Part shown: positions 27,644 through 38,675 of the stretch, piece after piece
How the letters are laid out: each line of letters starts with the position of its first letter
Position numbering within the stretch: position 1 is the first letter of the stretch
Source: Deltaproteobacteria bacterium
Lineage (GTDB): Bacteria; Myxococcota_A; UBA796; CAJQPC01
Reading direction: 5' to 3'
Assembly (NCBI GenBank): GCA_016717595.1
Contig: JADKFE010000001.1
Coordinates: forward strand, 182,445-246,444
Length of the DNA stretch: 64,000 nt
The notes under the pieces: model-generated
Told to the model about the DNA's origin: nothing
The model's database searches: none
The model's input: the letters and a program-made list of their open reading frames with translations, nothing else
Translations under genes and position numbers: made by a program

Positions 27644-29318
27644 ATGCCCCGCGAACCCGCCGCCGACCGCACCCACCACCACGCCGCGCTTGAGGCCCTC
27701 GCCGCCTCTCTGCAGGCCGCCTCCGCCGCGCGCCCGCCCGGCGGCCCGCCCATGGCCGAGCGGGTGGACGCGCTCTTGGCCGAGATCGGCGATCCCTGGG
27801 CCAGCGTCGTGGTGAAGGTCGGCGGCACGAACGGCAAAGGCAGCGTCGTGGCGATGCTGCGGGCTTGCTGCCAGCGCGCGGATCTCGCCGTGGCCACCTT
27901 CACCGGGCCGCACCTGAGCCGCCTCACCGAGCGGATCACCCTGGATGGCGCTGAGGTCGGCCCCGAGCCGCTGCGCCGGGCGCTCTTGGAGGCCCAGGCC
28001 GCCGGGGAGGCCGTCGTGGCGCGGCTGGGCCCCGGCGCGCGCCCGAGCTTCTTTGAGCTGCTCTTGGGCGCGGCGGTGATCCTCGCCCGGGCCTGGGGGG
28101 CCGAGGCGCTCCTCGTCGAGGCCGGCATCGGCGGGCGAGGCGACGCCACCTCCCGGCTCTCGGCCCAGGCCGTGGCCCTGGTGAGCGTGGGGGAGGATCA
28201 CCTCGACAAGCTCGGCCCGACGCTCACCCAGGTCGCCGCCGAGAAGGCGGGCCTGGCGCGGCCAGGGGAGGCGCTGATCGTGGGGCCGGGGGTGCCGCCG
28301 GAGCTGCTCACCGTGGTTCACGCCGCCGCGGAGCCGGGGGTGCGGGTGACGCAGGGGTGGGTTCGGCCCCGCGGGGGCGGCCGCGCGTGCGGGGGCCCGG
28401 GCGAACGGCCACGAGGCACAGAGTTATGCACACGGGGTTGGTGGTAAGGTGGGCCATCGCCGCGCAGGTCATCGCGGGAGACCCCAGGCGCCGATACGAA
28501 GGGGGACACCCAAGCACGCCCCCGCTCTCCCCTCCGCTCAAACTTCCACCGGCTCCTCTGTGTTCCTCCCTCTGTGTACTCTGTGCCTCTGTGGTTCGTT
28601 TCCTGGCGCTTCGAGTCGCCCCGACGCTCCTTCGCCGGTGAGCCCCTCGAAGAAGGCTCCACGATGGCACGACCGCATCCACGCGCTCCCCAACCCGAAG
28701 AATCGGCCGAGCCAGAGGCCAGTGGAGAGTGGGGAGACTGCGCCGCTGGTGGCATCAGGCGCCCCCTTCGCCACGGTGGCGCTGCCCGGCTTGGGCCCCG
28801 CGCGCCTGTCCCTCGCTGGGGCGCACCAGGCCGAGAACGCCGCCGTGGTCGCCGCGATCTGGGCCGAGCTTCACCGCCAGGGCCTCGTCCCCCTCGACGC
28901 GCTGCTCGGCGTCACCGAGGCCCGCTGGCCTGGCCGTCTGGAGCTTGTGCCCGGGGCCCCGGCGTGGCTCTTGGACGGCGCGCACAACCCGCCGGGCGTG
29001 GCCGCCTTGGCCCAGGCGCTCCCGGCGTACTGTACGGAGTCCGACCGGGCGCTGCTGGTCGGCGTGAGCGGCGGTCACGAGGCGGCGCTCTTGGCCTTGG
29101 CGGCCATCCCCGGCGAGCTGCACCTCGTCGGCGGCTTCTACCGCGCCGCGCCTGTGGAGACGCAGCTGGCCCTGCTCCCGCCCGGTCGTGTGACGGCGCG
29201 CTGGCCCGACGTGCCCACGGCCCTGGCCGCGCTCTCCACCCGGCGCGACAAGGCGCTCATCGTGGTGGCGGGATCCTTGTTTCTGGTGGGCGCGGCCCGG
29301 GAGGTCTTGGCGCCATGA
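27644..29318 (+). pseudogene. FolC/Mur-ligase-family protein 1 (folylpolyglutamate-synthase-like), split by a non-coding insert
   Basis: N-terminal half: 'VKVGGTNGKGSV', 'VEAGIGGRGDAT', 'GEDHLDKLG', 'EKAGLARPG'. The frame stops at 28447. The C-terminal half resumes in another frame: 'LSLAGAHQAENAA', 'LLDGAHNPPG', 'VVAGSLFLVG'. Confidence 0.7.
28400..28735. other. ~335-bp non-coding insertion inside folC-like gene 1 (possible MITE-like element or structured RNA)
   Basis: All three + frames read as junk or closed here, and the segment has visibly more A/T than the flanks. There is a 12-bp perfect inverted repeat (gaggcacagagt at 28413-28424 and actctgtgcctc at 28578-28589). Four CTCTGTG copies lie at 28556, 28570, 28579 and 28587, plus one inverted CACAGAG at 28417. 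Boundaries are approximate. Confidence 0.5.
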
Positions 29319-30623
29319 CGCCTGTGGAGCGGCTGTTTGAGGGTGACAAACACGGCGCGGGCCCGGGCCTGCACCGGATGAGCGCGCTTCTGGCGCACCC
29401 CGAGCTGTCTGTGCTGAGCACGATCCCCACGGCGCGGGTGACGGGATCCAACGGCAAAGGCTCCACCTGCGCCTTCCTCTCGGAGATCCTGCGCGCCTCG
29501 GGCCGGTCTGTGGCGCGCTTTACGTCGCCGCACATGAACGATCCGCGGGAGCGTTTTTGGCGGGACGGCGCCGACATCTCCGCCGAGGCCCTGGCCGAGA
29601 TCGCCGCCTGGACCCACGAGCAGGTGACTCTGTACGAGGCGCGCTTCCCCGGCGACCGTGTGGGCGCCTTTGAGCGGCAGGTGCTCAGCTTCGCCCGCTG
29701 GGTGGCCCTCGATCCCCCCGACGCCGTCGTGCTGGAGGTCGGCATCGGCGGGCGATTAGACAGCACCCGGGCTTGGCCCTGCGGGCTCGCCGGGCTCACC
29801 TCGGTGGACTTAGAGCACACGGCGCTGTTGGGGCCGACACGTCTGGACATCGCCTTAGAGAAGGCCCAGGCGGCGCCGTCTGGCGGCGTGCTGCTGCTCG
29901 GCGCCTTGCCCGGGGAGCTTCAGCGTCGGGTGATCGGCGCCTGTGAGGTGTGGGGAATTCACGCGGAGCCTGTGACGGAGAGCGCCGTGGTGCGTGAGGC
30001 GCGTCTGGACGGGGATCAGATGACCGCTTGGCTCTCCTTGCCCCAGCACGGCCATAGACCTCGGGCCCCTGCGTCTGGGGCTCTTGGGGCTTCATCAGGC
30101 GGAGAACGCGGCGATGGCGACGGCCTTGGCGCTGCGACTGTGTGGGGTTCGCGGTGAGGAGGCGGCCCGGCGGTTTGAGCCCGCGCTGCGGTCGGGCCTC
30201 GCCGCGGCGTGTTGGCCGGCGCGGCTGGAGCGTGTGGCGGAGGATCCGCCGACGTACCTCGACGCCGCGCACACCCCCGACGCCGCCCGGCGCCTCGCGG
30301 AGAGCCTGCCAGGGCTGCTCCAAGGGCGGGCGCTGGTGCTGGTGGCGGCGTGCTCGGCGGACAAAGACGCGGCGGCGGTGCTCTCGCCCCTCGTGGGGTT
30401 GGCCGAGCTTGTGATCACCACCCGGTCGGCGCGGGGGCAGGGCGCGGAGGCGCTGCGGGGGCTCGTGGTGGGGCTTGGGCGCGAAGGAGGCGCGGGCGGT
30501 GGAGCCCGTGGGCGCGGCGTTGGCGGCGGCGCGGGAGGTGGCGCGGGGGTGCGGCGGCGTGGTGGTGCTGGCGGGGAGCTTGTTCGCGGCGGGGGAGGGG
30601 AGGGTTGCCCGCTCAGGGGGTGA
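29315..30623 (+). pseudogene. FolC/Mur-ligase-family protein 2, frame-broken as sequenced
   Basis: ATGA coupling to gene 1. 'VTGSNGKGST', 'LEVGIGGRLDST', 'VDLEHTALLG'. The frame changes at the C4 run 30041-30044 (to 'AIDLGPLRLGLLGLHQAENAA', 'YLDAAHTPDA') and again around 30440-30478 (to 'VVVLAGSLFAAGEGR'). The 3' end is uncertain. Confidence 0.65.
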
Positions 30624-30689
30624 AGGGGCGGACTGGAGGAAGGTGACGAGGGCTTGGGAGGTGGGGCCTTGGAAGGCGTCGGGGGGAGG

Positions 30690-31482
30690 CCCAATTGTCT
30701 CTTGTCTCGATCAATCGCCACGGAGAGTGGGTCGCCAGGAAAGTAGGGCTGCCCGGCGATGGTCATCTGGGCCTTAAGGCGCTCGGATCGTTTGGTGTAT
30801 GCGGCTGCGTCTGGTGGACAGTGGTTGTTGAGGAGGTCGTCGGCGGCGGTCCAAGCGCCGGGCCATCGTTTGGCGACCTCGGGGGCGAGCACGGCCTCCA
30901 GGGTGCCATTGCCGTGGTCATCGGCGAAGATGAACAGCCCTACGGGCACGTCGCCGTGGCGAATCCAGCCGCCATGGCTCAGCCTGTCGACGTCCGAGAA
31001 CGTGCCTCCGTAGTCGTCGCGGAAGGTCTGCTCACGCGCGGCGATAGACGTGTCGGCATCGAAGACGAAGGCGACGGCGTACTCGGTCACCACGAACATG
31101 CCGTAGCTGTTGGAGAGCGTCGCGCTAAGATTGGACAACAGCTCAACGATCTTCGTCTTCGCGGAATCCGTGCCACAGCGCACAAGAGCACGAGCTGGTC
31201 GCGCGAGGCGTCGCGGAGGGCGCAGATAAACGCCGGAGCAGGCGCATGAGCGGCTTGGCTCAAACGCTCTCCGCCTAGCGCCCTTGTTGAGTAGTGCTGC
31301 ACAATCAGGGACACACCCCGGCCTGGGGCGTTGGGGTGCCTGGGAGTCTGCAACGCTCCAAAAGGCGACGGGAGCTTGTCAATGGGATCATTGATGAACT
31401 CCAGCCCAGCGACGGCACCTAGGCTTCGACGAACAAACACGATGTCATGGTTGCCTTCACAGAAGATGAGCAAGGCTTTCAT
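30690..31482 (-). pseudogene. Toprim-like protein (DUF4435/DUF3226/DUF4276-type, AriB-like), frame-broken as sequenced
   Basis: ATG 31482 overlaps the upstream ATPase stop (ATGA). 'MKALLIFCEGNHDIVFV' (Toprim Glu), then after a frame switch near 31183-31215: 'VAFVFDADTS' (DxD) and 'VGLFIFADDHGNGTLEAVL'. The ORF has no stop until 30095, but the sequence beyond about 30690 is Pro/Ser junk antisense to folC-like gene 2. Confidence 0.6.
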
Positions 31483-33695
31483 TTTGACCACCGAATGTCG
31501 AGATCAACGGCTCTGACGGCCTGGATAAGGCTTGATCCCTGATGTCGTCTCGCCAGGGTCGTCTCGCCGTCCCGCTCCAGACGATACGCCACCACGTCCT
31601 CGATGCGGTATTCGTTGAACAAGAAGGCGTCCACCGTCTCTTTGCTGTGGGTGGTGATGAAGACCTGGACGTTGAACTCGACGGCTAGCTGTTGGATGAG
31701 CTTAGTGAAGTCGATCAGGAGGCTCGTGTGGAGCGCGTTCTCCAACTCATCGATGAGCAGCACGCCGCCCTCCGCGCCCCCGAAGAGCAGTCCGATCTGG
31801 AACGCCCGCTGCAGCCCGTCGCCGAAGGACGACAGATCCGGCGAAGGCACACGCTGGGCGTGGGTCACAGTGAAGCGGTGATCACGGACCAGCTCAACGC
31901 TCTTGAGGTCGACATCTAAAAAGTCGCGCAAGAACTGGAGCACCCGATCCTTGATACCCAGCTTGACGGCCTGCTCGTTCGCGCTGGAGCGTCGTTGGGT
32001 CCGACGCAGAGAACGGCGAGTGGAACAGTGTCGGGCAGATCCAGCGCTGCTCCCCGACGAGGGTCGTGCGCGGCGCGGTGCCAACCACCAGATCGCTCGT
32101 GGAGCGCTGGTGCTTGTTGCCAAACTTAGCCTCGATCTCAAGCACCCCCAAGAAGCCCGCGCGGTTGGTCTCTGGGTCGTCAGGGTCGTCTGTGACGCTC
32201 AGGTGAACGGAGACCTCGTCCTGCGGAGGGTCACCAAATCGGCCTGAGATCATCGCTGGACAAGGCAGTTCGGGCTTGAGCCACTCCATGTCGGTGAGAA
32301 CGTCCCAGCGGGCGCGGCGCCGTAGTGTCTCAAACAACCCACGGGGATCGGACTGGTGGATGAGTAAGCTCACCGCTTCCAAGAAGCTCGTTTTGCCAGC
32401 GTTGTTGTTGCCGACAATGAGGTTGATACGCCCCGGTTGCTCAAGCACCAAGTTCTTGAGCCCCGGTGCGCGCTCGATGTGGAGCGATGTGAGGTGTTTG
32501 CGGCTCACCTCGGTGTACGCGGGCCACGGAGCCGTGAGCTGTTGTGGCGCCTCTCCGCCTCTCCGCTTGGCTAGCAAGCCCTGGAGCACAAGGATCTGCT
32601 CTTGGACCTCATCAGACTGACGGGCGTTTAGCTTTGTAGACAGCCGCTTTACGTTCGTTACCCCATACCGTAGCGTCGCCACAGCATCGTTGCCCGCGTT
32701 AATCAACAAGAGCTCGCTCACGAGCGACGCGGAGGAGAGGCTGCGCGTCCGATTCAGCGCAGAGACCGCTGCGGAGTCCAGAATGATCTTCGCAAGATCC
32801 CGAATCTGCCCACCTGTTGTAATCGCAGGATCAAGCGTTCGGGAGTTGCCGACCGATTGTGGATCTTCGTCGTCATCCTCATCACTGGCCTGCTCTCTGG
32901 AGATCCACGAGAAGAGCTGGCTCAAATGCTCTGTGTTCGTTGCGCGCTCTGCCCAGTCTTCCCATCCAAGCCAGGTACGAATGTCCGGCGCCTTGAGCAC
33001 CTCACGAAGAATGTTGAACTGCTCGGAGCGAAACTGCTCGCCGTAGTCGCTCTTTTGGTAAGCCTCACAGAGCGCGAGCGTGCGCACGCTGAGGTTGAAC
33101 TCGCGCCGTGAGACACCGAGCATCGCGCAGATCTTGTTTGGGTCTTGCTTGTGCTCGTCACGCAGGCTGCGCATCAGCTTGGCTTGGTTGATCGGAGGCC
33201 ATTGACGTTTTCCGCTAATGTGATGCAGCCCCATGATGATCATGTGGTGCATCTTGTCCTGCTCCTCGTAAATCACGCACGGGATCGCCTCAAAGAGCGC
33301 CGGGCTCAGCTTGCCGAGCTGACCCGTCGAGCCCTCATACTGAGCCTGCATGTGCTTGAGGGTGCTGACCCGACGGTTGCCCTCGACGACGAGGTATCGA
33401 TCACCGGACGCCCGCCGAACATGAATCGGCTCCACATCCAGCCAGCCATTCTCTTTGAAGCTCTCAATGTTGGTTGGCTGACGTTCTCAGCCCTGTGGCC
33501 AAGGATGAAAGCGCGGGTGCGGCGCTGCACATCCTCATTAAACTGGTCGGCCTCTTTGACGTCTACATAGTCCACGTGATCAATGAAGCGGAAGTTGTTT
33601 GGATCTAAGTAGAGGCTCTTGAGCGGCAGCAGCAGACGCTCCGCCCTTTCAGCAGCGGGCGGGGTGAGTGTTGGGGGGCGTGGGTCGTCGCTCAT
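31479..33695 (-). pseudogene. ParB/Srx N-terminal domain fused to ABC-type (AAA_15/AAA_21-like, AriA-like) ATPase, frame-broken as sequenced
   Basis: Reconstructed across breaks near 33466-33483 and 31975-32000. ParB-like 'LPLKSLYLDPNNFRF' and 'IHVRRASGDRYLVVEGNRRVSTLKHM'. Walker A 'LIVGNNNAGKTSFLEAV', signature-like 'SSFGDGLQRAF', Walker B 'GVLLIDELENALH', 'ITTHS'. Confidence 0.65.
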
Positions 33696-33747
33696 TCGTA
33701 GCTCCTCATCCGCCGAACCTTAACACACCCGCCGCCCCCCGCGCCCC

Positions 33748-34125
33748 TCACTCCCCCTTGGGCTTCGTGTAGAAGAAGCTCTTCACCAGGGCGGGCTGCT
33801 TGGGGTACAGCAGCGTGAGCCGGGGCTCAGCCTCGTCTAAGTGGTCGCAGGCCTGCTCGAAGGTGACGCGCAGGCGGGCCTTGGCCTCGTTCTCGGCGGC
33901 GTAGAGGGCCTCGCGGTGGGCGCGGGCGGTCTCCAGCGCCGTGAGGCCGTTGTGGAGATCGGCGGTGGGCACGGCGGCGAAGTCGGGCTCGGCGGCGATG
34001 GCGGCCAAGGCGCTGTGCAGAAAGCGGTTTTGTTCCTCGCCGTGGCCGCGCTTGATGGCGTCGGAGGGGTTCTGGGGGAACACCCGGCGGTAGCGGGGAT
34101 CTTGGCGGTCGCGCGCCGCGATCAC
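33748..34125 (-). CDS. hypothetical protein
   Basis: Ordinary composition from 'VIAARDRQDPRYRR...' onward. The track's upstream part (to 34212) is poly-Gly from a G/C-rich run. The start is uncertain. Confidence 0.35.
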   Translation of the reverse strand: MIAARDRQDPRYRRVFPQNPSDAIKRGHGEEQNRFLHSALAAIAAEPDFAAVPTADLHNGLTALETARAHREALYAAENEAKARLRVTFEQACDHLDEAEPRLTLLYPKQPALVKSFFYTKPKGE

Positions 34126-34145
34126 CCCGCCAAGCTGAGCCCCCC

Positions 34146-35228: not shown

Positions 35229-38200
35229 ATGTTCAGCGACCTGCTGTCCCCCGTAGAGCTTGAGGCCGACATCTTGGCCTTCTGGCGCGAGAACGACATC
35301 TTCGAGGAGGGCCTGCGCATCAGCCGAGGCCGCCCGGAGTGGATCTTCTACGAGGGCCCGCCCACGGCGAACGGCCTGCCGCACAACGGCCATGTGCTCA
35401 CCCGGGTCATCAAGGATCTTTTCCCGCGCTACAAGACGATGCGGGGCTTTCATGTGCGGCGCAAGGCGGGCTGGGACACCCATGGCCTGCCGGTGGAGGT
35501 CGAGGTCGAGAAGACGCTGGGCATCCACGGCCGCGAGGCCATCGAGGCCTACGGGCTTGAGCCCTTCGCCCGCAAATGTGTCGAGTCGGTGTTCACCTAC
35601 ACGAAGGAGTGGGAGGAGCTCACCGAGCGCATCGGGTTCTGGATCAACCTCGAAGACGCCTACGTCACTTACCACCGCTCCTACGTCGAGAGCGTGTGGT
35701 GGGCGCTCTCTCAGCTCTTCAAGAAGGGCCTGTTGTACCAGTCCCACAAGGTCGTGTGGTGGTGGCCCCAAGGCGGCACGGCGCTCTCCGCGGGGGAGGT
35801 CGGCCAGGGCTACAAGACCGTGGATGATCCCTCGGTGATCGTCCGGTTTCCTGTGGACGGTCAGCCCGGCGTAAGCCTGCTCGCCTGGACGACGACGCCC
35901 TGGACGCTGCCGTCGAACACCGCCATCGCCGTGGGGCCCGCCCTGGACTACGCCGTCGTGGCGTTTGGTGAGGAGCGCCTCATCGTGGCCGCCGCCCTGG
36001 TGGAGCGGTGTTTAGGGCCCGAGGTCACCGTGCTGCGGCGATGAAGGGCGCGGAGCTGGTGGGCTGGCGCTACCAAGGGCCGTACAGCTTCGACACCCCC
36101 GTGGGCGGCGACGGCGGGCGGGTGATCGGCGGCGACTTCGTGAGCTTGGACTCGGGAACCGGCCTCGTACACACCGCCCCGGCCTTCGGTGAGGATGACT
36201 TCCGCGTCGCCAAGCTCAATGGCATCGGCCTCATCCAGCTTGTCGAGCCCAACGGCAACTTCTCGGCGAAGGCGGGCTGGCTGGCGGGCAAGTTCTGCAA
36301 AGACGCCGACAACGACATCATCCGCGATCTCAAAGATCGTGGCTTGTTGTTCAAGCGCGAGACCTACCGCCACGACTACCCCTTCTGCTGGCGGGCGGAC
36401 TCCGATCCCCTCATCCAGTACGCCCGCCCGGCGTGGTTTATCCGCACGACGGCCCTGAACGCTGAAGCGCTGTCCAACAACCAGGCGGTGCGCTGGCTGC
36501 CCGAGCATGTCAAGGAGGGCCGCTTCGGCGACTTCTTACGCAACAACGTGGACTGGGCGCTCAGCCGCGAGCGTTTCTGGGGCACGCCCCTGAACATCTG
36601 GCGCTGCCCCGACTGTGGTGAGATGATGGCCCCGGCCTCCACAGCGGAGATCCGGGCGCTCAACCCTGACGCGTTTGATCCAACAGTAGACGAGCACCTC
36701 CAGGTGCACCGCCCGTGGATTGATCGGGTGACCTTGCCCTGCAGCGCCTGCGGCGGCACGATGGTGCGGGCGCCGGAGGTCATCGACTGCTGGTTTGACT
36801 CGGGCTGTATGCCCTTCGCCCAGTGGGGCTTCCCGCACCAGGGTGTGGAGGCGTTTAAGGCGAGCTTCCCCGCCGACTTCATCAGCGAGGCCGTCGACCA
36901 GACCCGCGGCTGGTTCTACTCGCTGTTGATGATCTCCACGCTCCTGTTTGACAAGGAGAGCTGCGCGGAGCTGGGCTTGGGCGATGTGGGCGAGGCGCGG
37001 CCCTACAAGACCTGTATGGTGCTCGGCCATGTGTGTGACATGGACGGCAAGAAGGAGTCCAAGTCCAAAGGCAACTACACCAGCCCCGATCTGGTGATGA
37101 CCGGGCGGGTGCGGCAGCAGGTGGTGCCCGACACACGGCTCAAGCCGGGCCAGCTCGGGCTCAAAGAGGCCCAGGTGCGGGCGCTGGACTTGGGCGCTGA
37201 AGACCGCTTCACGGCGACGGGCCCCGAGGGGCAGAGCATGGCCCTTGAGGTGGTCGTCTGTGAGGTGAAGGGCAAAGACATCATGGGGATGCACCCTGAC
37301 GACATCGCCGCCTTGGGCCTCGCGCCCGAGAAGGACGGCGCCACGCGGGTGAACCTCAAGGCGCCCTTTGAGCCGCCGGGGGCTGATGCCTTCCGCTGGC
37401 TGTTCACCAGCTCCAACCCGCCGTGGAACAACACCCGCCTGAGCCTGCGGGCCATCCGGGAGGGCCAGCGCGACTTCTTGATGCGCCTCAAGAACGTACA
37501 CAGCTTCTTCACGATCTACGCGAAGATCGCCGGGTTTGACCCCAACGCCCCCGCCGCCCGGGCGCCGAAGGACCGCGGCCCGCTGGACCGCTGGATCCTG
37601 CACGAGCTGAACACAGTCAACGCCCAGGTGATCGCCGCCTTGGACGACTACCATGCTCTACGACGCGGCGCAGGCCCTGCGCGGCTTCGTGGAGAGCCTG
37701 TCCAACTGGTATGTGCGCCGGTCGCGTGAACGTTTCTGGGGCGAGGGCCCCGAGACCCAAGACGCGCTCACCACCTTGTATGAGGTGCTCACCCGGCTCT
37801 CCCGGCTGATCGCGCCGTTCGTGCCGTTCACCGCAGAGGCCATGTACCTCAGCCTTGAGGCCGGTCAGCGCAAAGGGGCCTTGGCGTCTGTGCACCACAC
37901 GGCCTACCCCACGCCGGATGAGGACGCCCTGGCGCCGGAGCTGGCTGAAGACATGGCGCTTCTGCGGGAGCTGGCGAGCTTGGGCCTCGCGGCGCGAAAG
38001 AGCGTCGGCGTGCGTGTGCGCCAGCCCCTTCGGGCCCTGGAGGTGATCTTGGCCCGCCCCGAGCGCGCCGAGCGCCTCGCGCCGCTGCTGCCGCTGCTGC
38101 TGGACGAGCTCAACGTGCGGGAGATCCACTTCTCCCAGGAGCCCGAGCGGTTCGTCGAGTTTAAGGTGAAGGCCAACTTTAAGGCCCTGGGCAAACGTCT

Positions 38201-38675
38201 GGGCAAAGACATGAAGCTCTGCCAGACGATGATCACCGGCATGGACCCGGCGGCGGTGCGTCGGGCGGTCTTGGGCGACGGCCTGCGCCTGGAGCTGCCG
38301 AGCGGCGAGGTGGTCTTGGGTCTGGAGGAGGTCGTGGTGGAGGTGAGCCCCCGGGAGCACTTCCAGGCCGCGGGCTCGGCGAGCGCCGTGGTGGCCCTGC
38401 ACGCGGATCTCGACGACGATCTCCGCGAGGAGGGCCTCGCGCGGGAGGTGCTCAGCCGCGTACAGACGATCCGCCGCGAGCTTAACTTGGGCTACACCCA
38501 GCGCATCGACCTCAGCATCGACGGCGACCCCGCCTTGGTGAAGGCCGCCGAGCGGTTCCGCGAGCACCTCAGCCGAGAGTCCCTCGTGCGCCAGTGGGGC
38601 GCGGGAGACGGCGGCGAGGCGCGCACGCTGGACGTCGATGGGCTGCCGCTGATCCTGCGGGTGAGCCCGGTTTGA
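35229..38675 (+). pseudogene. ileS: isoleucine--tRNA ligase, two frame breaks as sequenced (probably sequence errors)
   Basis: '[20 protein letters not shown]' (HIGH-type), 'GWDTHGLP', 'WRCPDCG', 'KESKSKGN' (KMSKS-type), 'SNWYVRRSRERFW'. The protein continues across three track ORFs, with switches near 36025-36040 and 37648-37656. Confidence 0.85.

What the first reader, a model, noticed from the sequence alone, without database searches (positions are those of the whole stretch)
28400..28735. Non-coding ~335-bp element inserted in a FolC-like gene, with an internal 12-bp inverted repeat and a CTCTGTG array
Seen in sequence:
- FolC-like gene 1 reads normally up to '...AAEPGVRVTQGW' (about 28360).
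- It resumes in a different frame at '...ETAPLVASGAPFATVALPGLGPARLSLAGAHQAENAA' (about 28735).
- The roughly 130 codons in between are junk or closed in all forward frames and are visibly less GC-rich.
- Inside the insert, gaggcacagagt (28413-28424) pairs perfectly with actctgtgcctc (28578-28589). Imperfect extensions continue on both sides (cgaacggccac... / ...gtggttcg).
- CTCTGTG occurs four times in 38 nt (at 28556, 28570, 28579 and 28587), and once inverted at 28417.

Established knowledge: in FolC/Mur ligases only a few tens of residues separate the corresponding motifs.

Inference: a small non-autonomous mobile element (MITE-like), a structured RNA, or possibly an intron has split the gene. 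The downstream coupled paralogue may compensate.
Basis: partly seen in the sequence, partly recalled or inferred. Interest (0 to 1): 0.65.

Follow-up and report, generated by a model that had tools for sequence, protein, structure and literature searches.

The report
Repeat-bearing insertion splitting a FolC-like gene
A 385-base stretch of non-coding DNA, built around a hairpin repeat also found in many unrelated bacterial phyla, sits inside a folate-enzyme-like gene of this uncultured bacterium; it is a real old insertion, not an intron or known RNA, and the repeat family matters more than the broken gene.

Summary
The sequence features are real. The insert is slightly larger than reported: 28355-28739, 385 nt. 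It lies right after the Q codon of ...RVTQ in the first of two coupled FolC-like genes. Three orthologues (85-93% nt identity) have an uninterrupted site. The closest relative (L004, 96%) carries the same insert with an internal 167-bp segment inverted.

Only the CTCTGTG array plus GGTTCG (about 28545-28612) recurs elsewhere. Its 20-mer occurs in more than 119 loci from cyanobacteria, Sorangium, Planctomycetota, Acidobacteriota, Proteobacteria and others. There it is usually an intergenic hairpin, and sometimes it is read in-frame inside real genes. No Rfam family and no held paper matches it. The rest of the insert is private to this lineage.

It has no terminal inverted repeats, no target duplication and no intron signature.

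The assembly has about 0.4 frame-breaking indels per kb; even IleRS is "frameshifted". So the frame change across the insert and the breaks in the second FolC gene are not reliable evidence of gene death. The flanking coding sequence is still under purifying selection (dN/dS 0.29-0.36).

Verdict: an ancestral insertion of repeat-bearing DNA, later rearranged. Whether the gene is dead, split, or carries a 128-aa loop is unresolved.

The parts
27644..28354 (+). FolC-like gene 1, N-terminal 237 codons (ATP-binding part), ending with ...RVTQ
   Evidence: TIGR01499 folC scores 208.6 bits for the spliced protein. This part is 88.6% identical to P0001 residues 1-237. GC3 is 0.9 or higher.
28355..28739 (.). 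The inserted non-coding DNA (385 nt, 3n+1). It is absent from three orthologous loci.
   Evidence: Empty sites in L001, L127 and L128 read CAG-GCx-CCG-GCC-TTG. There is no GC3 signal in any frame. GC is 0.65-0.69.
28355..28397 (.). Left flank of the insert: very GC-rich, origin unknown
   Evidence: No significant similarity to the target site or to any fetched locus.
28398..28432 (+). Left, degenerate arm of the hairpin (CGAACGGCCACGAGGCACAGAG...), containing the 12-nt repeat at 28413-28424
   Evidence: Inverted repeats I4, I5 and I7. It forms the closing stem of the 216-nt fold. It is collinear with L004 1268-1309.
28451..28621 (.). Segment that is inverted between the window and L004. Its breakpoints lie in a 4-bp inverted microhomology, GGGC (28451-28454) and GCCC (28618-28621).
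   Evidence: Window 28500-28621 matches L004 1427-1306 at 90% over 122 nt, reversed. In-silico inversion gives one collinear alignment: score 127.8, against 33.3 uninverted.
28545..28612 (-). Array module: four CTCTGTG units plus GGTTCGTTTCC. Read on the minus strand it is AAACGAACCACAGAGGCACAGAGTACACAGAGGGAGGAACACAGAGG. This is the only part shared with other phyla.
   Evidence: The 20-mer (rc of 28580-28599) hits more than 119 loci in species-representative genomes and 2 viral contigs. BLAST of the insert against those loci covers only 28545-28612.
28622..28739 (.). Right flank of the insert: origin unknown, not shared with L004
   Evidence: It contains a small local CTTCGAG/CTCGAAG stem.
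28740..29318 (+). FolC-like gene 1, C-terminal 192 codons, in the +1 frame relative to the N-terminal part
   Evidence: 93.4% nt identity to L127. dN/dS is 0.285 against L127. The stop overlaps the gene 2 start as ATGA.
29315..30606 (+). FolC-like gene 2 (paralogue), with two single-base frame breaks near 30050 and 30480 that are probably assembly errors
   Evidence: Alignment to the intact 436-aa L001 orthologue shows two 1-nt insertions. tblastn finds three frames.

Best explanation
About 385 bp of non-coding DNA was inserted once into the first of two translationally coupled FolC-like genes. The event happened in the common ancestor of this organism and the strain sampled in contig L004. 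The insertion lies in the part of the gene that codes a variable, probably surface-exposed turn.

The insert is organised around a hairpin-type copy of a short palindromic repeat: stacked CACAGAG units anchored by CGAACC on one arm and GGTTCG on the other. That repeat is dispersed in many bacterial phyla, mostly between genes. The two arms (28398-28432 and 28556-28606) pair over a 130-nt loop.

Later, a 167-bp internal piece (28451-28621) flipped in one of the two lineages, by illegitimate recombination or template switching at a 4-bp inverted microhomology.

The element codes nothing and is not spliced. As assembled, the N-terminal frame runs into a stop 30 codons into the insert and the C-terminal half continues in the +1 frame. 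So the gene is read as two pieces.

Shown: the insertion, its limits, its repeat content, the inversion, and continuing constraint on the flanks.

Inferred: a single origin, the inversion mechanism, and that the repeat module, not a transposase-defined MITE, is what links it to other genomes.
For: Insertion:
- Three empty sites at 85-93% nt identity, against filled sites in the window and in L004 at 96%.
- The insert is non-coding: no GC3 signal and lower GC.

Repeat family:
- The 20-mer occurs in more than 119 loci from at least 8 phyla.
- It forms a hairpin with a partner arm 15-236 nt away in 11/11 Sorangium loci and 34/45 other non-cyanobacterial loci. The window's partner arm is 155 nt away.
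- The 216-nt sub-element folds with z = -3.4.

Single origin plus inversion:
- The left part is collinear between the window and L004 (score 19.8, against a control maximum of 17.8 in 2000).
- The core is reversed at 90% identity.
- In-silico inversion restores a single alignment.
- Core divergence of 10-15% is of the order of dS = 0.084.

Not an RNA family or intron.
Against: - The point where the insert meets the gene differs by 25 bp between the window and L004. The window's left flank cannot be shown to derive from those 25 bp.
- L004 ends inside the insert, so only one inversion junction is seen.
- L004 carries an extra 16-nt direct repeat of its target that the model does not explain.
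- dN/dS of 0.36 between the two insert-bearing strains (P = 0.005 against neutrality) is unexpected if the gene was simply killed at the time of insertion.
- No read data were available to confirm the window's own arrangement.
Confidence: 0.6

Rival explanations
1. The insertion is carried in-frame. The true insert is 384 nt, and the assembly has one more 1-nt indel between 28350 and 28444. Gene 1 would then be a single ORF encoding a FolC-like protein with a 128-residue, low-complexity loop insertion. This would resemble palindromic elements tolerated inside Rickettsia genes, and copies of this same module in Nostoc genes.
For: - The C-terminal frame is open across the entire insert; the chance for one given frame is 6.7%.
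- The assembly has 0.44 frame breaks per kb, including two in IleRS and breaks in both PDC-M38 genes.
- Both gene halves remain under purifying selection.
- The site aligns to a length-variable turn of FPGS, near residue 230 of 1FGS.
- The module is read in-frame in Nostoc ChlH/CobN and in a GBA2-like gene in three genera.
Against: - The expected number of indel errors in the critical 95 nt is only about 0.04.
- A minus-strand frame is also fully open across the insert and a second forward frame is open across most of it, so open frames are cheap at this GC.
- In L004, a short-read assembly, the N-terminal frame hits a stop 38 codons into the insert.
- There is no coding signature in the insert.
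Confidence: 0.22
2. Two independent insertions of related copies of a mobile element hit the same 25-bp stretch of the gene in opposite orientations. This would mean a target hot spot, possibly linked to the TTGGTGG...GGGCG motif that occurs both in the gene and in the element.
For: - The junction with the gene differs by 25 bp and the core orientation is opposite.
- L004 has a 16-nt direct repeat of its target next to a mini arm (15/16 identical, 0 of 300 shuffles reach it).
- The outer flanks of the two inserts differ.
Against: - The left 42 nt of L004's insert are collinear with the window's left arm in the same orientation.
- A single 167-bp inversion explains all 203 visible nt.
- No other copy of the private part exists in anything searched.
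- No target duplication in the window.
Confidence: 0.1
3. The segment is a functional RNA element: a self-splicing intron, or a structured regulatory RNA embedded in the gene. The mature message or protein would then be intact.
For: - The 216-nt sub-element forms a long hairpin on the sense strand (z = -3.4).
- The flanking coding sequence is still constrained.
Against: - No group I, group II or any other Rfam match, even at E<10.
- The whole insert folds with z = +0.4.
- The core is inverted in the nearest relative, which a spliced RNA would not tolerate.
- The hairpin arms are the generic repeat module found in many intergenic contexts.
Confidence: 0.03
4. The insert is an assembly artefact of an error-prone long-read MAG: a chimeric or misplaced segment.
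For: The assembly has many indel errors. The window's arrangement is supported by one record only.
Against: An independent short-read contig from another wastewater project (L004) carries homologous insert DNA at the same place in the same gene. The errors seen elsewhere are 1-2-nt indels, not insertions of hundreds of bases.
Confidence: 0.03

Closest known systems
REP / REPIN / BIME-type extragenic palindromes (including the GTAG- and CGTC-tagged REP superfamilies of PMC3733652, and the REPINs of PMC3116915)
   Same: - Short, non-coding, hairpin-forming repeats dispersed mainly between genes, often just after stop codons.
- Two inverted arms with a variable spacer, as in REPINs.
- Likely side effects on transcripts rather than a coded function.
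   Different: - The arms are stacks of a heptamer (CACAGAG at 8-9-nt spacing), not small imperfect palindromes.
- No GTAG or CGTC tag.
- The same 20-mer is shared across phyla, whereas REP families are usually species- or genus-specific.
- No RAYT association could be tested.
- The window's copy is intragenic and apparently single-copy within 64 kb.
MITEs (for example Correia elements or Nezha; named from my own knowledge, not tested here)
   Same: Small, non-autonomous, AT-richer than the host, able to interrupt genes, present or absent between close relatives.
   Different: No terminal inverted repeats at the insert ends, no target-site duplication, no second full-length copy found, and no partner transposase identified.
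Rickettsia palindromic elements (RPE) carried in-frame in protein genes (from my own knowledge; RPE appears only as an abbreviation in PMC3733652)
   Same: - A palindromic repeat sits inside an ORF at a variable surface region.
- Family members are read through in-frame in real genes: ChlH/CobN and a GBA2-like gene.
- The host gene is still under constraint.
   Different: As assembled, the window's insert is 3n+1 and has a stop in the upstream frame. Most of the 385 nt is not the repeat. The family spans many phyla, not one genus.
Small dispersed repeats (SDR) of Nostocaceae (Elhai et al. 2008, Genome Res 18:1484; cited in PMC3116915 and PMC5861425)
   Same: Very small repeat units nested inside other repeats in heterocystous cyanobacteria. 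In Nostocales the module occurs as a roughly 30-nt single arm inside larger inverted-repeat elements.
   Different: - That paper is not held, so sequence identity with any SDR family could not be checked.
- PMC5861425 says SDRs were found only in Nostocaceae and that SDR5 may insert at HIP1 sites.
- Here the module is in at least 8 phyla, and only 3 of 62 cyanobacterial copies have HIP1 nearby.

Membership tests
MITE | Terminal inverted repeats at the ends of the inserted unit | tested here: not met
   The only strong inverted repeat (28398-28432 with 28556-28606) is internal, 43 nt and 133 nt from the insert ends. The 122-bp core shared with L004 has no inverted repeat of 10 nt or more and folds worse than shuffles.
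MITE | Target-site duplication flanking the insert | tested here: not met
   Comparison with three empty sites leaves no duplicated bases beyond a possible 1 nt. The insert has no significant copy of its target (P = 0.1-0.6).
MITE | Multiple near-identical copies in the same genome | tested here: inconclusive
   No second copy in the 64-kb window. The central 20-mer gave only one chance hit in JGI metagenomes. No protein-level echo among 5.8 billion proteins. The rest of the source genome could not be searched.
REP / REPIN | Short imperfect palindrome with a conserved GTAG or CGTC tag, in high copy number, extragenic | tested here: not met
   No such tag. The arms are heptamer stacks. The window's copy is intragenic and single in 64 kb.
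REP / REPIN | Associated RAYT (Y1 transposase) gene in the genome | not testable with these tools
   Only 64 kb of the source genome and 8-kb blocks of other genomes were available.
Group I or group II intron | Conserved catalytic core detectable by covariance models | tested here: not met
   No Rfam match at gathering score in the window, and none at E<10 in 28200-28900 apart from one unrelated sRNA fragment at E = 4.2.
Group I or group II intron | Fixed orientation and conserved structure among relatives | tested here: not met
   The core is inverted in L004. The whole insert folds with z = +0.4.
Group I or group II intron | Precise removal from the transcript | not testable with these tools
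   Needs RT-PCR or RNA-seq.
Cross-phylum CACAGAG-array palindromic module (defined here) | CGAACC + (ACAGAGN)n arm, identical over 20 nt | tested here: met
   The reverse complement of window 28580-28599 equals the 20-mer found in more than 119 loci.
Cross-phylum CACAGAG-array palindromic module (defined here) | Inverted partner arm within about 15-236 nt, forming a hairpin | tested here: met
   The partner arm at 28398-28432 lies 155 nt away and is degenerate.
Nostocaceae SDR (Elhai 2008) | Sequence identity with one of SDR1-8 | not testable with these tools
   The paper is not held.
Nostocaceae SDR (Elhai 2008) | Insertion at HIP1 (GCGATCGC), as reported for SDR5 according to PMC5861425 | tested here: not met
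   3 of 62 cyanobacterial copies have a HIP1-like site within 40-60 nt.
Programmed invertible element (inverton) | Inverted repeats of roughly 10 nt or more at the inversion boundaries | tested here: not met
   The boundaries share only GGGC/GCCC. No repeat pair sits at 28451 and 28621.
Programmed invertible element (inverton) | Nearby site-specific recombinase; both orientations in one population | not tested
   No recombinase domain appears among the genes called in L001, which extends 6 kb either side of gene 1, or in the PDC-M38 island. Population reads were not available.
FolC (TIGR01499) for the host gene | Full-length match above the curated cutoff | tested here: met
   The spliced gene 1 scores 208.6 bits against a cutoff of 162.65, covering profile positions 2-399 of 400. 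It also aligns to 1FGS at E = 1e-32.

The most novel reading that the evidence does not exclude
The CGAACC-(ACAGAGN)n module may be an undescribed family of very small palindromic elements with these properties:
- It is shared almost letter for letter by distant phyla (Nostocales, Sorangium, Planctomycetota, Acidobacteriota, Proteobacteria and others).
- It can sit inside working genes in-frame.

The FolC copy would then be a tolerated intragenic member whose host gene stays under selection. A bolder version is that its inner segment switches orientation and so toggles the gene. The evidence does not exclude that, but I rate it unlikely (about 0.05).
Probability: 0.3. Interest if true: 0.6.

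Novelty: new member of a known kind. Interest (0 to 1): 0.4.

Why it matters
At the level of this locus it matters little. It is one more gene interrupted by a small repeat-bearing insertion, in a draft genome whose indel errors make "frameshifts" unreliable.

Two by-products are of wider interest.

1. The repeat module is conserved over 20 of 20 bases in more than a hundred species from very different phyla. It has no Rfam entry and no sequence match in the searchable literature. It also occurs in-frame in essential genes such as Mg-chelatase. That raises the question of how so small a sequence spreads or is maintained across phyla.

2. The interrupted FolC-like gene is still under purifying selection in two lineages that appear to have inherited the insertion. 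If confirmed, proteins of this fold can tolerate either a large loop insertion or a physical split at this position.

Tried and rejected
1. Known RNA families. Rfam at gathering score on the window and on 15 related loci, and at E<10 on 28200-28900, found nothing relevant.
2. Literature by sequence. Nucleotide 15-mers, 11-12-mers and the peptide echoes NHRGTE/TTEAQR gave only unrelated primer hits or nothing. Keyword searches led only to REP, REPIN, HIP1 and TAACTGA-repeat papers. Elhai 2008 is not held.
3. More copies of the private part of the insert. BLAST against the window, a viral scan and a JGI metagenome scan of the central block (L126 is a chance hit without any array), and a protein search with the ORF spanning the insert all came back empty.
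4. A 122-bp core with its own terminal inverted repeats, by analogy with the Nostoc composites. Rejected: no inverted repeat, and fold z = +1.1 to +1.6.
5. Inversion by recombination between the two hairpin arms. Rejected: the 18 nt beyond the right arm are inverted too, and TTGGTGG..GGTGGGC keeps its orientation.
6. The window's left flank as a decayed copy of the 25-bp target (a long target duplication). Not significant.
7. HIP1-flanked insertion as a link to SDR5. Seen in 3 of 62 copies.
8. Promoter or intrinsic terminator inside the insert. None found.
9. I first read the L004 copy as an independent insertion in reverse orientation. Gapped alignment with controls changed that to one insertion plus an internal inversion.
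Full report
**Observation**

The 12-nt perfect inverted repeat is at 28413-28424 and 28578-28589. The four forward CTCTGTG copies are at 28556, 28570, 28579 and 28587, with one inverted copy at 28417. The window holds 18 copies against 8.9 expected, and five of them lie within 180 nt.

GC falls from 0.76-0.83 in the gene to 0.65-0.69 in the insert. GC at third codon positions is 0.9 or higher in the N-terminal frame up to about 28370. It lies between 0.57 and 0.87 in every codon phase until about 28730, and recovers in the +1 frame.

One detail is wrong. The frame of the C-terminal half is open through the whole segment, from 28350 onward.

**Host genes**

- Gene 1, with the segment removed, matches TIGR01499 folC over the whole profile (208.6 bits, cutoff 162.65). 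It also matches L. casei folylpolyglutamate synthase 1FGS (E = 1e-32).
- Gene 2 starts at 29315, overlapping the stop of gene 1 as ATGA. It is a paralogue.
- The source is an NCBI record annotated as a Deltaproteobacteria MAG, locus tag IPO67_01075, on a contig of 266,626 bp.

**Limits of the insert**

Uninterrupted orthologues exist:
- P0001: 430 aa, 87% identical (loci L001-L003).
- P0002: 429 aa, 82% identical (L128).
- P0003: partial, 92% identical (L127).

All three DNA sequences read CAG-GCx-CCG-GCC-TTG at the site. The window reads CAG | 385 nt | GCG-CCG-CTG. The insert is therefore 28355-28739 (382 nt if ACT is counted as gene). Either way its length is 3n+1, and there is no target-site duplication. 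The site aligns to the VPK|AKLHGWGQ turn region of 1FGS, where homologues already differ in length.

**What the insert is made of**

No Rfam family matches it on either strand, even at E<10. There is no second copy in the 64-kb window, of the whole insert or of the array module.

The 216-nt piece at 28395-28610 folds into one long hairpin closed by the two arms. The z-score is -3.4 on the plus strand and -1.9 on the minus strand. The whole insert is no more structured than shuffles (z = +0.4). No promoter-like or terminator-like site was found.

**A widespread module**

The 20-mer CGAACCACAGAGGCACAGAG is the reverse complement of 28580-28599. The hosts include:
- many Nostocales;
- several complete Sorangium genomes, each hit at more than one place;
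- Gemmataceae and other Planctomycetota;
- Verrucomicrobiota, Acidobacteriota and Gemmatimonadota;
- Alpha-, Beta- and Gammaproteobacteria;
- Spirochaetes and Chloroflexota.

In Sorangium (11 of 11) and in other non-cyanobacterial hits (34 of 45), the 20-mer is one arm of a hairpin. The partner arm lies 15-236 nt away. The hairpin is flanked by an A-run and a T-run, and often sits directly after a stop codon.

In Nostocales (57 of 58) it is a single arm followed by GAGTTTGAGAG. It is frequently nested between other inverted repeats such as AGGACTTACGCA / TGCGTAAGTCCT.

The window's copy has a partner arm 155 nt away, and also an AAGTTTGAGCGGAG block.

Only window 28545-28612 is similar to these loci. 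Rfam does not recognise the canonical forms either. No held paper prints the motif or its peptide echoes.

In AT-rich Nostocales genomes the module lies in-frame inside long, clearly real ORFs:
- Mg-chelatase ChlH/CobN in L028 (...AYFG-NEPQRHRGHGEEEE-IRSLL...);
- a GBA2-type glucosylceramidase in L053, L048 and L077 (...ANHRGTEVTEV...).

**The nearest relative**

L004 is a 1470-bp short-read contig from a wastewater metagenome. It is about 96% identical to the window in the gene. It also leaves the gene at this place, 25 bp further downstream, and its protein call (P0005) ends in a tail that echoes the reverse translation of the window's insert.

- Window 28500-28621 equals L004 1427-1306 at 90% over 122 nt, reversed. 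Weaker similarity extends to 28466.
- I first took this for an independent insertion in the opposite orientation.
- A gapped alignment then showed that the first 42 nt of L004's insert are collinear with window 28394-28454 in the same orientation. The score is 19.8, against a mean of 5.8 and a maximum of 17.8 for 2000 control segments.
- Inverting window 28451-28621 in silico turns the comparison into one collinear alignment of all 203 visible nt. The score is 127.8, against 33.3 uninverted and 112.5 for the whole insert reversed.
- The breakpoints fall in a 4-bp inverted microhomology: GGGC at 28451-28454 and GCCC at 28618-28621.

The simplest history is one insertion in the common ancestor of the two strains, followed by an internal inversion in one of them. 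This fits the distribution: present in the two closest sequences, absent at 93%, 87% and 85% identity. It also fits a core divergence of 10-15%, of the order of the synonymous distance of 0.084.

Three points remain open:
- the 25-bp offset of the junction;
- a 16-nt direct repeat of the target in L004, bracketing a mini arm (15/16 identical; 0 of 300 shuffles reach it);
- the fact that L004 ends before the second inversion junction.

**How far the frames can be trusted**

Comparison with L001 shows frame breaks in the window in several places:
- two in isoleucyl-tRNA synthetase (35229-38672);
- two in FolC gene 2;
- one in a 387-aa gene.

The two genes of a PDC-M38 defence-like system are each split as well. 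IleRS is essential (established knowledge), so these are best read as consensus indel errors, at about 0.44 per kb of coding sequence.

Three consequences follow.
- The "broken" paralogue is probably intact in the cell.
- The +1 frame difference across the insert is weak evidence on its own.
- One further 1-nt error anywhere in 28350-28444 would make gene 1 a single ORF with a 128-residue insertion. The expected number of errors in that interval is only about 0.04. The chance that the needed frame is open is 6.7%, times one third for the length class. So neither reading is clearly favoured by these numbers alone.

**Is the gene dead?**

dN/dS for the N-terminal half between the two insert-bearing strains is 0.36 (15.2 non-synonymous and 15.8 synonymous differences; one-sided P = 0.005 against neutrality). 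For the C-terminal half against L127 it is 0.285 (P = 0.0001). Both values lie within the range seen between intact orthologues, 0.24-0.45.

If the insertion predates the split of the two strains, the gene has not been drifting as a pseudogene for most of that time. It may still work with a loop insertion, or as two polypeptides. Alternatively its loss is recent. L004, which is short-read data, does have a stop 38 codons into the insert.

**Comparison with known kinds**

The insert works like a small repeat-bearing insertion of the REP/REPIN or MITE kind, but it fails the defining tests for both. It has no terminal inverted repeats, no target duplication, no GTAG or CGTC tag and no demonstrable multiple full-length copies.

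The Nostocales form recalls the small dispersed repeats of Elhai et al. 2008. That paper could not be read. The one reported property I could test, HIP1 flanking, is seen in only 3 of 62 copies.

In-frame carriage recalls Rickettsia palindromic elements (my own knowledge).

Intron and structured-RNA readings are not supported.

**Verdict**

The finding is a real, old insertion of non-coding DNA that carries a member of a cross-phylum palindromic repeat. It was later rearranged, and it sits in a gene that is still constrained. As a locus it is ordinary. The repeat family and the persistence of the host gene are the parts worth following up.

Noticed in passing
window 35229-38672; 29315-30606; about 22600; 30650-33435: The assembly carries frame-breaking 1-2-nt indels in conserved genes. 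Relative to the intact L001 orthologues or profiles, IleRS is in three frames, FolC gene 2 in three frames, a 387-aa gene in two, and both PDC-M38 genes are split. The rate is about 0.44 per kb of coding sequence, so apparent pseudogenes in this window should not be taken at face value.
   Followed up: yes
window 30605-34133: A 3.5-kb segment absent from the syntenic L001 locus lies between FolC gene 2 and the 330-aa gene. It encodes a candidate anti-phage system, PADLOC PDC-M38A (ATPase; E = 9e-117 and 2e-53 for its two fragments) plus PDC-M38B (DUF3226).
   Followed up: partly
L028 (Nostoc sp. FACHB-110); L053, L048, L077 (Aphanizomenon, Nostoc, Anabaena); L115: The CGAACCACAGAGGCACAGAG module is read in-frame inside long real ORFs. 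In Mg-chelatase ChlH/CobN it reads NEPQRHRGHGEEEE. In a GBA2-like glucosylceramidase it reads ANHRGTEVTEV, at the same position in three genera.
   Followed up: partly
L031, L111, L113, L121, L037 (flanks of the 20-mer): Next to the CACAGAG arrays there are arrays of other 7-9-mers that also end in GGTT, such as CTCTGCG, CTTCGTG, CTTGGTG and TCATCGGCG. Some form outer palindromes around the module. This hints at a superfamily of heptamer-array hairpins with interchangeable units.
   Followed up: no
L004 1252-1309: A 16-nt direct repeat of the gene's own sequence, TTGGTGGCGGAGGGCG and TTGGTGGCGGTGGGCG, brackets a 26-nt piece with a mini arm (GAACGAACCACAGA). It looks like a very small insertion with a long target duplication, or a slippage product. 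It is unexplained.
   Followed up: partly
L013 5700-5810, L100 6725-6835, and 13 of 62 cyanobacterial copies: In Nostocales the module is often nested in a composite element of about 95 nt, closed by a 12-13-bp outer inverted repeat, AGGACTTACGCA / TGCGTAAGTCCT. The DNA fold z-score is -2.8 for L100. A second context type has GGGACTTCCAA / TTGGAAGTCCC.
   Followed up: partly
L009 (Sulfuritalea MAG), near position 806-825 on the minus strand: A hairpin copy of the module sits directly after a stop codon and just upstream of a gene starting [29 protein letters not shown], which I read as EF-Ts (tsf). This is a position typical of REP-like elements inside operons.
   Followed up: no
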